Source: Escherichia coli
GTDB lineage: Bacteria > Pseudomonadota > Gammaproteobacteria > Enterobacterales > Enterobacteriaceae
Assembly: GCF_003334385.1 (NCBI RefSeq)
Contig: NZ_QOWN01000030.1
Direction: 5' to 3' (one strand)
DNA length: 57,197 nucleotides
Position 1 is the first letter of the stretch; each line of letters opens with the position of its first letter. Position numbers: made by a program. Of this stretch, positions 18,001-21,000 are shown one piece after another.

Positions 18001-21000
18001 AGTACGTACCCAGGAATGATTTCGACATCGCAACTACTGCGACAATAATCCCGGAAATTGACAACCATGCTGGGGCGTTCGGCAGCATAGAAAGCGCCGA
18101 TAAAATGGTGACCCCTTCTTCTTTAGCAGCTTCAATATACGAAGGTGGAATAGAAAGCAGGCAGCTAAAGACAAAGAACAGTACACTTATGCAGATGATG
18201 AGATAAGCGACTTTCATAATTTTTTTGCATTTATCCATAGCGTGTTCGCCATATTTTTCACGTCTGTCTATGGCAAACGTAGAAATAATGGGCGTATGGC
18301 TAAAGGCGAAAACCATCACGGGAATCGATATCCATATCTGGTGAAGGGTATTCTGATTGAACTCTACCTGGGTTGTTAATAGATCAGGTTGCCAACTACC
18401 GACAAGGTAAATGGAAAGAAATAAGAAATAGGCAATCAATGGGAATACCAAAAATCCCATTACCCGAATAGTGGCATGACGTCCCATCAGAAAAATGAGA
18501 TTCAGAATTAATACAACACCCAGACTCACCAACATACGGATGCGAAGATCAATAACCATATGCTTTGCCAGCTGTTCCGTAAGTGAGTTGGTAATTGCCA
18601 CTGCATATATCAACACGACGACAAAAAAGGCGATGAAGTACAGCGTGGTAATCAGATTACCAATCTTCTTGCCATAGTAGTGTGTTACCGCGCCCGTTAT
18701 CCCTTCACCTGCTGATGTTTTTGATGAGAGGATGAACTGGCACAAGGCTTTATGTGGCCAATATGTTAAAGGCCAGGCGACCAGAGCAGTAATAAACAGG
18801 ACCACAGCCCCTGCCGAACCTAACTGAATAGGAAGGAAGAGCGTGCCTGCACCAACGGCTGTGCCGTAGAGCGCGAAACTCCACAGAGTTTCTTCTTTAG
18901 ACCAAATATTAGACATTATCTGAACGTATCATCTACAAATTAAACAAAATGGAGGGCAATTTACCATAAACCAGGTTAAGTATGGGAGATTAACGCCCTA
19001 TCTACCCCTCTATTGGTGGGTTAGTGGTTGCAAACCTTACGTGCCAGTTATGTCTCTGACTGCTGCTCAGGCATATTTCCTTTGTGATAAAAATCACTTT
19101 TTTTAAACAATTAAGATAACTGTAATTAACAATCATTTACTATTGCACTGTTAATTGGTGCGAGGTTGTGATGAAAGACGTTGTGATTGTCGGGGCGTTA
19201 CGGACACCTATCGGCTGCTTTCGTGGTGCGTTAGCGGGTCATTCCGCCGTGGAACTTGGTAGTCTGGTCGTGAAAGCGTTAATAGAACGTACCGGCGTTC
19301 CTGCATATGCGGTGGATGAAGTAATTCTTGGTCAGGTGTTGACTGCAGGGGCAGGGCAGAATCCGGCAAGGCAATTGGTCAGGTGTTGACTGCAGGGGCA
19401 GGGCAGAATCCGGCAAGGCAATCGGCTATTAAAGGTGGTCTGCCTAATAGCGTTTCTGCAATCACTATTAATGACGTTTGCGGTTCCGGGCTTAAAGCAC
19501 TGCATCTGGCTACTCAGGCGATACAGTGTGGCGAGGCTGATATTGTCATCGCCGGTGGCCAGGAAAACATGAGCCGCGCACCACATGTTCTGACTGATAG
19601 CCGCACCGGTGCACAGCTTGGCAATAGCCAGTTGGTTGACAGTCTTGTGCATGATGGGTTGTGGGATGCCTTCAATGATTATCATATTGGTGTCACCGCC
19701 GAAAATCTGGCTCGCGAATATGGCATCAGCCGTCAGTTGCAGGATGCTTACGCACTTAGCTCGCAACAAAAAGCGCGAGCGGCGATTGACGCCGGACGAT
19801 TTAAAGATGAGATCGTCCCGGTAATGACCCAAAGTAACGGGCAGACGTTGGTTGTTGATACCGATGAACAGCCACGCACTGACGCCAGCGCAGAAGGCTT
19901 AGCCCGTTTAAATCCTTCATTTGATAGTCTCGGTTCTGTGACAGCGGGTAATGCATCATCCATAAACGATGGCGCAGCTGCGGTAATGATGATGAGCGAA
20001 GCCAAAGCACGAGCGTTGAATTTACCCGTGCTGGCCCGCATTCGCGCATTTGCCAGCGTTGGTGTAGATCCGGCATTGATGGGAATTGCGCCGGTGTATG
20101 CGACCCGCCGTTGCCTGGAGCGTGTAGGCTGGCAGTTGGCTGAAGTCGATCTTATCGAGGCTAATGAAGCGTTTGCTGCACAGGCGCTTTCGGTTGGCAA
20201 GATGCTTGAGTGGGATGAGCGTCGGGTCAATGTCAATGGTGGCGCGATCGCACTCGGTCACCCGATAGGCGCTTCCGGTTGCCGAATCCTGGTTTCTCTG
20301 GTTCATGAAATGGTGAAACGTAATGCCCGCAAAGGACTGGCAACGCTTTGTATCGGCGGGGGCCAGGGTGTGGCATTGACCATTGAACGTGACGAATAGC
20401 TCTGCATTTCCTCCTTACCGATAAATATCTGCCGTCATTAATCTGTTGAATAATGATGGCTGGCAAGTCGACATACATTTTCTGGGCTCCCTCATTTTTC
20501 CATTCTCATGACATATTCGTGATCGACACTGCACTTTTTTTAATCCTTAATTTAAAAATGAAATATTGTTTTATTTTTAATTGAAAACCCTAGCCCATGG
20601 GCATATCATCCCTTTATAGAGAAAACGAAACAGTGTTTCACTATCGTTTTCTATTTTCACGCTTCACTGATTATCGGAGGTTGATGTGGACGTAAGACAG
20701 AGCATCCACAGTGCGCACGCAAAAACGCTGGATACCCAAGGGCTGCGCAATGAATTTTTGGTTGAAAAGGTATTTGTCGCCGATGAGTACACCATGGTTT
20801 ACAGCCACATTGACCGAATTATTGTTGGCGGCATTATGCCGATAACTAAAACGGTTTCCGTTGGCGGGGAAGTTGGTAAACAACTCGGCGTAAGCTATTT
20901 CCTTGAACGTCGCGAGTTAGGTGTTATCAATATTGGCGGTGCCGGTACGATTACTGTCGATGGCCAATGCTATGAAATCGGTCACCGCGACGCCCTGTAT

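What the first reader, a model, noticed from the sequence alone, without database searches (positions are those of the whole stretch)
19328..19421. Perfect 47-bp tandem duplication disrupts the thiolase gene yqeF
The 47-bp unit is repeated head-to-tail with no mismatch. This duplicates the codons for LGQVLTAGAGQNPARQ and shifts the frame, leaving a 73-aa N-terminal ORF and an out-of-register remainder. Perfect short tandem duplications are young and revert at high frequency by RecA-independent slippage, so this could be a recent mutation or a reversible switch. Deleting one copy restores a ~394-aa thiolase.
Basis: seen in the sequence. Interest (0 to 1): 0.6.

Follow-up and report, generated by a model that had tools for sequence, protein, structure and literature searches.

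The report
Real 47-bp duplication inactivating yqeF
One small clone of E. coli carries a genuine, perfect 47-base head-to-tail duplication that frameshifts the non-essential thiolase gene yqeF; it is an ordinary recent loss-of-function mutation that could revert, not a new kind of genetic switch.

Summary
Window 19328-19374 and 19375-19421 are identical 47-bp units inside yqeF (acetyl-CoA C-acetyltransferase). The +47 shift leaves a 73-codon 5' ORF and a 338-codon 3' ORF. Removing one copy restores the common 393-aa YqeF exactly.

It is not an assembly artefact. An independent NCBI draft contig (GCA_012504395.1) carries the same junction. The Logan k=31 contigs from the raw reads of ERR1948963 break at window 19357 and 19393, exactly the graph branch nodes a two-copy unit predicts. 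A single-copy sequence has no such nodes.

The allele is lineage-restricted. The junction is absent from 5,426 complete E. coli genomes and from the metagenome contigs. All relatives outside the clone have one copy, including four contigs that share a rare LysR allele. Clone members are 100% identical over more than 20 kb and share a private 6-bp ygeA deletion.

The unit ends share only 1 nt of microhomology, and the unit has no significant secondary structure. Nothing supports an evolved ON/OFF switch: the target is a cytoplasmic, dispensable enzyme, there was no pre-existing repeat, and no revertant appears among the six lineage contigs found.

Verdict: a real, young, revertible pseudogenising mutation of a well-known kind. 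Interest is low.

The parts
19171..20399 (+). yqeF (acetyl-CoA C-acetyltransferase, thiolase II), disrupted; 1229 nt here against 1182 nt in relatives
   Evidence: Annotated yqeF lies under the match in all listed complete genomes. In SCU-104 yqeF is L001 19803-20984, which maps to an ATG start at window 19171. The restored protein has Thiolase_N at residues 4-261 and Thiolase_C at 270-391.
19328..19374 (+). Copy 1 of the 47-bp unit TTGGTCAGGTGTTGACTGCAGGGGCAGGGCAGAATCCGGCAAGGCAA (codons 53-68)
19375..19421 (+). Copy 2, identical to copy 1. The novel joint is 19374|19375 (..GGCAA|TTGG..)
   Evidence: The junction probe 19349-19400 matches no complete E. coli genome, and the control works.
19422..19422 (+). 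Single T equal to the first base of the unit; this is the only microhomology at the duplication ends
   Evidence: Period-47 identity extends from 19328 to 19422.
19168..19389 (+). 5' remnant ORF: 73 codons from GTG, 72 from ATG 19171. It encodes native residues 1-68 followed by LVRC and a stop, and lacks the nucleophilic Cys88
19383..20399 (+). 3' remnant ORF of 338 aa starting at a GTG inside copy 2. It keeps Cys88, the GHPIGASG motif and Cys378 but lacks residues 1-59. Its start overlaps the 5' ORF stop (GTGTTGA), and no well-spaced Shine-Dalgarno sequence precedes it
   Evidence: The exact product is on record as P0002.

Best explanation
This is a spontaneous, lineage-specific internal tandem duplication of 47 bp in yqeF.

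Origin (inferred): a replication or repair template-switch event re-copied 47 bases, using at most 1 nt of microhomology.

Consequence (shown from the sequence): because 47 is not a multiple of 3, the reading frame is lost after codon 68 and translation stops 4 codons later, so the gene is a pseudogene. The N-terminal fragment lacks the catalytic Cys88. The downstream ORF lacks the first 59 residues of the Thiolase_N core and has no good ribosome-binding site.

Fitness (inferred): yqeF is dispensable, so the loss is probably neutral or nearly so, and the allele has been inherited clonally.

Reversion (inferred from established knowledge, not measured here): slipped misalignment between the two perfect copies could delete one copy and restore the wild-type gene. 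That is a by-product of the structure and not an evolved regulatory mechanism.
For: Structure and frame.

Ancestral single-copy state:
- All top matches span 554 bp instead of 601 bp.
- 5,418 of 5,426 genomes carry the region, and none carries the junction.
- No metagenome contig carries the junction.

The duplication is real:
- NCBI contig DABAMG010000031.1 (57,034 bp, different ends from the window) has both units and the junction, and is 100% identical over 20,687 bp.
- Logan contigs of ERR1948963 span window 51-19357 (19,307 bp, the same contig in 3 samples) and window 19393 onward (37,758 bp).
- These contigs end exactly at the k=31 branch nodes 19328-19357 and 19393-19422, which exist only if the junction 31-mers are in the reads. 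A single-copy sequence has no such nodes.

Clean background: only 16 SNPs and 3 small indels separate the window from SCU-104 over 57 kb, with no other change inside yqeF.

Lineage restriction: contigs sharing the rare LysR allele but lying outside the clone (L012, L014, L015) have one unit, a 393-aa YqeF and a 230-aa YgeA.

Dispensability: the Keio yqeF knockout is viable, and purified YqeF is a short-chain thiolase that overlaps AtoB in activity (PMC9541201).

No structural driver: folding the unit as DNA gives z about -1.1 on both strands.
Against: - No reads were examined directly, so the copy number (2 rather than 3) rests on the NCBI and window assemblies. A mixed population with revertants cannot be excluded.
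- Neutrality is assumed, not shown.
- yqeF is present in nearly all E. coli, which suggests some selective value, so the loss could be mildly deleterious or adaptive in this clone.
- Whether the three NCBI and three Logan records are three isolates or repeated sequencing of one isolate is unknown.
Confidence: 0.9

Rival explanations
1. Assembly artefact: two contigs overlapping by a 47-base k-mer were concatenated without trimming, or the assembler went round a graph loop once too often.
For: 47 is an odd number in the range of commonly used k values. The window looks like a whole short-read contig bounded by repeats, with an IS4-family element on the left in SCU-104 and the tRNA-Met triplet on the right.
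Against: - The same junction is in a second assembly with different contig ends.
- Logan contigs built from raw reads at k=31 break at exactly the nodes that require junction-specific 31-mers in the reads.
- There is no other duplication of similar size in the window.
- The unit is not repeated elsewhere in E. coli genomes, so an assembler had no reason to break a contig there (median 1 place per genome).
Confidence: 0.02
2. Evolved or exploited reversible ON/OFF switch (phase variation) of yqeF: duplication turns the gene off and precise slippage turns it on, as a bet-hedging device.
For: - Perfect tandem copies are intrinsically revertible.
- Reversion would restore the exact common allele.
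- Reversible gene inactivation by intragenic tandem duplication has precedents: pneumococcal cap3A (Waite 2001, as cited in PMC11163986) and Ralstonia phcA (Poussier 2003, as cited in bioRxiv 10.1101/2023.04.27.538605).
Against: - The OFF allele was seen in only one clone and in 0 of 5,418 complete genomes that carry the region.
- All six lineage contigs fit the OFF state, with no revertant (the 3 Logan contigs fall in the 20-50 kb class expected from a break at the duplication).
- The ancestral sequence has no repeat that would make the forward step frequent; the ends share 1 nt of microhomology.
- The target is a cytoplasmic, dispensable metabolic enzyme, not a surface or restriction-modification function.
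Confidence: 0.05
3. The allele is still partly functional. Ribosomes terminating at TGA 19387-19389 reinitiate at the overlapping GTG 19383, giving a 338-aa thiolase lacking residues 1-59. This protein might be complemented by the 72-aa N-terminal fragment, which overlaps it by 12 residues.
For: The stop and start overlap (GTGTTGA). The 3' ORF retains all the catalytic motifs: Cys88, GHPIGASG and Cys378. Together the two fragments cover the whole sequence.
Against: - No suitably spaced Shine-Dalgarno sequence lies before the GTG.
- The missing residues fall within the Thiolase_N core domain, which spans residues 4-261.
- Split reconstitution of a thiolase is unprecedented to my knowledge.
- Nothing was tested here.
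Confidence: 0.03

Closest known systems
Spontaneous short intragenic tandem duplications (illegitimate recombination or replication slippage) that create frameshift pseudogenes in bacteria
   Same: The duplication is head-to-tail and perfect. Relatives carry the single-copy ancestral allele. Little or no end homology is involved. The reading frame is lost, and the allele is inherited clonally.
   Different: Nothing essential differs. This particular allele (47 bp, yqeF codons 53-68) is not present in the 5,426 complete genomes searched.
Duplication-based capsule phase variation in Streptococcus pneumoniae cap3A (Waite et al. 2001, as cited in PMC11163986)
   Same: An intragenic tandem duplication turns the gene off, and loss of the duplication restores it.
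   Different: In cap3A, duplications arise recurrently, OFF and ON states interconvert observably, and the phenotype (capsule) is under fluctuating selection. Here there is one event in one clone, no observed reversion, and a dispensable cytoplasmic enzyme.
Ralstonia solanacearum phcA tandem-duplication variants that revert in planta (Poussier et al. 2003, as cited in bioRxiv 10.1101/2023.04.27.538605)
   Same: A short tandem duplication inactivates a gene, and a precise loss gives true reversion.
   Different: phcA is a global virulence regulator whose revertants are strongly selected. No such selection is known for yqeF.
Simple-sequence-repeat contingency loci (Haemophilus, Neisseria)
   Same: A change in repeat copy number shifts the reading frame reversibly.
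   Different: Those loci have pre-existing multi-copy arrays of 1-8 bp units with high rates in both directions. Here the unit is 47 bp and is single-copy in the ancestor.
AtoB and other biosynthetic thiolases (PDB 8gqj, 5f0v, 1dm3 family)
   Same: The restored YqeF aligns end to end with solved thiolases (E = 1e-173 to 1e-131) and has both thiolase domains.
   Different: The window allele is frameshifted and cannot encode the full-length enzyme.

Membership tests
Perfect tandem duplication (derived allele) | Two adjacent identical copies, head to tail, with no spacer | tested here: met
   TRF: period 47, 2.0 copies, 100% matches. String identity confirmed.
Perfect tandem duplication (derived allele) | Relatives carry one copy at the same site | tested here: met
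   Matches span 554 bp instead of 601 bp in complete genomes. There is one unit in L012, L014 and L015 and one in SCU-104.
Perfect tandem duplication (derived allele) | Reproducible in independent assemblies and in reads | tested here: met
   GCA_012504395.1 carries the junction. Logan k=31 contig ends fall at the predicted branch nodes. Direct read mapping was not possible.
Thiolase II / acetyl-CoA C-acetyltransferase (YqeF) | Thiolase_N and Thiolase_C domains with the catalytic Cys, His and Cys motifs | tested here: met
   For the restored sequence: PF00108 at 4-261 (E = 3.6e-104) and PF02803 at 270-391 (E = 1e-52). Cys88 lies in NDVCGSG, GHPIGASG starts at 347, and Cys378 lies in CIGGGQG. 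There is a full-length alignment to solved thiolases.
Thiolase II / acetyl-CoA C-acetyltransferase (YqeF) | Uninterrupted full-length reading frame | tested here: not met
   The frame is lost after codon 68, with a stop at 19387-19389. The window allele is a pseudogene.
Phase-variable (contingency) locus | A pre-existing repeat tract that makes both the forward and reverse change frequent | tested here: not met
   The ancestral allele has a single unit with 1 nt of end microhomology and no significant secondary structure.
Phase-variable (contingency) locus | Both states found among and within related isolates | tested here: not met
   The junction is in 0 of 5,426 complete genomes. All six lineage contigs are consistent with the duplicated state.
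Phase-variable (contingency) locus | Measured high-frequency switching | not testable with these tools
   This needs a fluctuation assay or deep read data.
Assembly artefact (untrimmed k-mer overlap) | Junction absent from the raw reads and from other assemblies | tested here: not met
   No other duplication of similar size is in the window.

The most novel reading that the evidence does not exclude
The duplication is more than a dead-end lesion. Codons 52-53 of yqeF would be a recurrent breakpoint site: an unrelated tktA-terminator|yqeF junction in SRR27843622 lies 2-3 nt from the duplication's left edge. The clone would use the revertible duplication as a heritable but reversible OFF state of a thiolase that competes for acetyl-CoA.
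Probability: 0.04. Interest if true: 0.35.

Novelty: new member of a known kind. Interest (0 to 1): 0.12.

Why it matters
It matters little beyond strain bookkeeping. The duplication is a clean clonal marker: a 47-bp size difference that PCR can score. It is also a natural example of a revertible internal tandem duplication, which could serve as a chromosomal substrate for measuring slippage-mediated deletion. Annotators should call yqeF a pseudogene in this lineage. It does not open a new biological question.

Tried and rejected
- **First listing of cluster members attempt.** It failed on the queue and succeeded later.
- **Exact lookup of the 72- and 73-aa N-terminal products.** Neither is in the collection.
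- **The only retrievable contig with the 338-aa ORF (L002, SRR27843622).** It turned out to be a different rearrangement and not the duplication. The near-coincidence of breakpoints is largely ascertainment: any junction within about 30 nt upstream of GTG 19383 yields the same ORF call.
- **Secondary structure as a driver.** There is none (z about -1.1).
- **k-mer-overlap artefact.** Rejected.
- **Mutator background.** I suspected one because of apparently three private indels. mutH is identical to SCU-104. The EscS 1-bp deletion proved to be a circulating allele, which corrects my first reading.
- **Closer sisters via the rare LysR allele.** The contigs found (L012, L014, L015) are single-copy but no closer than SCU-104: 13 to 123 differences over about 20 kb. 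The age bracket therefore stays loose.
- **Literature and metadata.** The Bzymek & Lovett 2001 review (PMC37438) is not held, so no quantitative reversion rate is cited. A metadata search for the run and assembly accessions found nothing.

Full report
**1. Observation**

Reading the window and running Tandem Repeats Finder show a single array at 19328-19422: period 47, 2.0 copies, 100% matches, no indels, score 190. A string comparison confirms that 19328-19374 equals 19375-19421. The period-47 identity stops after one extra T at 19422.

A scan of the whole 57,197-bp window for perfect tandem duplications finds nothing else with a period above 9. Twenty shuffles gave none with a period of 20-99.

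**2. What is duplicated**

The region is yqeF on the + strand. Every listed complete E. coli genome annotates 'yqeF: acetyl-CoA C-acetyltransferase' under the match. The neighbours are the canonical ones: yqeG on the - strand upstream, then kduI, kduD and araE downstream.

- The unit covers codons 53-68, LGQVLTAGAGQNPARQ.
- Because 47 = 15x3 + 2, the frame is lost. The 5' ORF (19168-19389) ends ...NPARQLVRC*.
- A 338-codon ORF (19383-20399) begins at a GTG inside copy 2.
- Removing one copy gives 394 codons from GTG, or 393 aa from the annotated ATG at 19171. This is identical to the commonest YqeF allele, seen on at least 1000 contigs.
- The restored protein has Thiolase_N (residues 4-261) and Thiolase_C (270-391). 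It aligns end to end with solved thiolases and carries Cys88, the GHPIGASG motif and Cys378.
- The 5' fragment lacks the nucleophilic Cys. The 3' ORF lacks the first 59 residues of the N-terminal core and has no well-spaced Shine-Dalgarno sequence, although its GTG overlaps the upstream stop (GTGTTGA).

**3. Is it an artefact?**

The rival I took most seriously was an untrimmed k-mer overlap, since 47 is a plausible odd k. The window also looks like a complete short-read contig. It begins where SCU-104 has an IS4-family element and ends in the triplicated tRNA-Met genes. Three results reject the artefact.

- (a) The window is otherwise clean. It differs from SCU-104 by 16 SNPs and three small indels over 57 kb, with none inside yqeF.
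- (b) I used a private marker 5 kb away, a 6-bp in-frame deletion in ygeA, as a tag. An exact-protein lookup found six contigs. NCBI contig DABAMG010000031.1 of GCA_012504395.1 is 57,034 bp, with ends that differ from the window by 81 and 82 bp. It is 100% identical over 20,687 bp and contains both units and the junction.
- (c) Logan assemblies are built from raw reads at k=31. For the duplicated sequence, the de Bruijn graph has branching 30-mers at 19328-19357 (two predecessors) and 19393-19422 (two successors). A single-copy version has none. The two Logan contigs of ERR1948963 span window 51-19357 (19,307 bp, the same contig in three samples) and window 19393 onward (37,758 bp). Those breaks need junction-specific 31-mers in the reads.

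The left-contig end at 19357 is obtained by arithmetic from the reversed record range and assumes no indel in the part I did not retrieve.

**4. Distribution and age**

A 52-bp probe centred on the joint cannot seed on single-copy DNA, as the local control shows. It finds nothing in 5,426 complete E. coli genomes, although 5,418 of them carry the region. The junction is also absent from the metagenome contig collection.

The window's LysR allele (G47E relative to SCU-104) is rare, occurring on 10 contigs. Six are the duplication lineage. The other four places (L012, L014, L015) have one unit, a 393-aa YqeF and an intact 230-aa YgeA. They are not closer than SCU-104, with 13 to 123 differences over about 20 kb.

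The event is therefore bracketed only to the branch leading to a clone whose sequenced members are identical over more than 20 kb. Perfect identity of the two copies is weak evidence for youth, since 94 bp is a very small mutational target (my own estimate). The restricted distribution and the otherwise wild-type gene are the real evidence.

**5. Mechanism**

Shown:
- The structure.
- The frameshift.
- Clonal inheritance.
- The absence of end homology beyond 1 nt.
- The absence of significant hairpin potential (z about -1.1 on both strands).

Inferred:
- The duplication arose by a one-off template switch or slippage during replication or repair.
- It can be lost by slipped misalignment between the two perfect 47-bp copies. 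RecA-independent recombination between direct repeats shorter than about 200 bp is established knowledge, summarised in PMC7063769. I could not retrieve quantitative rates, because PMC37438 is not held.

yqeF is dispensable. The Keio knockout is viable, and purified YqeF is a short-chain thiolase similar to AtoB (PMC9541201). A neutral or near-neutral loss is the simplest reading.

**6. Switch hypothesis**

Reversible inactivation by intragenic tandem duplication is known in two cases. One is pneumococcal cap3A (Waite 2001, cited in PMC11163986). The other is Ralstonia phcA (Poussier 2003, cited in bioRxiv 10.1101/2023.04.27.538605).

The present case shares the structure but none of the features that define a contingency locus:
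- There is no pre-existing repeat.
- The event does not recur in other lineages.
- No ON members appear among the six lineage contigs.
- The target is cytoplasmic and metabolic.

It works like those systems only in the trivial sense that it could revert. I do not file it as a phase-variable locus.

**7. Verdict**

This is a real, recent, clonally inherited, potentially revertible loss-of-function duplication. It is a new allele of a well-known kind of mutation. It is of low general interest but is useful as a lineage marker and as a possible natural slippage substrate.

Noticed in passing
window 24753/24754 (ygeA, about 24175-24861): There is a 6-bp in-frame deletion (ATTTTT) that removes Ile194-Phe195 immediately before the GCTE motif of the YgeA amino-acid racemase. 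No complete E. coli genome shares it. Only the six contigs of the duplication lineage encode the 228-aa product. It is probably a second lineage-specific functional lesion, 5 kb from yqeF.
   Followed up: partly
L002 (Logan SRR27843622_490), junction at L002 1931-1934, equivalent to window about 19325-19328: An unrelated sample joins the native tktA 3' end and its terminator directly to yqeF from codon ~53 onward, with TC/TTC microhomology. The breakpoint lies 2-3 nt from the duplication's left edge. tktA and yqeF are about 110 kb apart in strain M217, and to my own knowledge the interval holds essential genes. It may be an engineered insertion, a subpopulation or a chimera. The coincidence is largely explained by ascertainment through the shared 338-aa ORF.
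   Followed up: partly
window 2563 (EscS/YscS-family gene of ETT2, starting about 2416): A 1-bp deletion (GG to G) truncates the protein to 50 aa. It first looked private, but the identical deletion occurs in divergent lineages (L006, L007, L008, L011 at 97.5-98.5% identity). It is therefore a circulating or recurrent pseudogene allele.
   Followed up: yes
window 6138 (eprH / PrgH-family gene): A T7 run, where SCU-104 has T8, splits the gene into 172- and 190-aa ORFs. The allele is shared with 76 complete genomes. Together with several other frameshifted ETT2 genes annotated in SCU-104, this fits the known mutational attrition of ETT2.
   Followed up: partly
window 25644 (lysR codon 47, - strand): The Gly47Glu change (relative to SCU-104) lies within the N-terminal 60 residues of LysR, where the HTH_1 domain is expected. 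The exact protein is rare, on 10 contigs, yet it occurs on backgrounds that differ by up to about 0.6%. That suggests spread by recombination or recurrence. The effect on lysA activation is unknown.
   Followed up: partly
window 1 and window 57117-57197: The window starts where the closest complete genome has an IS4-family (IS421) element. It ends inside the three tandem tRNA-Met genes, where its last 80 bases match multiple copies. It is therefore probably an entire contig of a short-read draft assembly that broke at repeats.
   Followed up: yes
window 50766 (recB codon 656): There is a Gly656Ser difference from SCU-104 in RecB. I did not check whether it is lineage-private.
   Followed up: no
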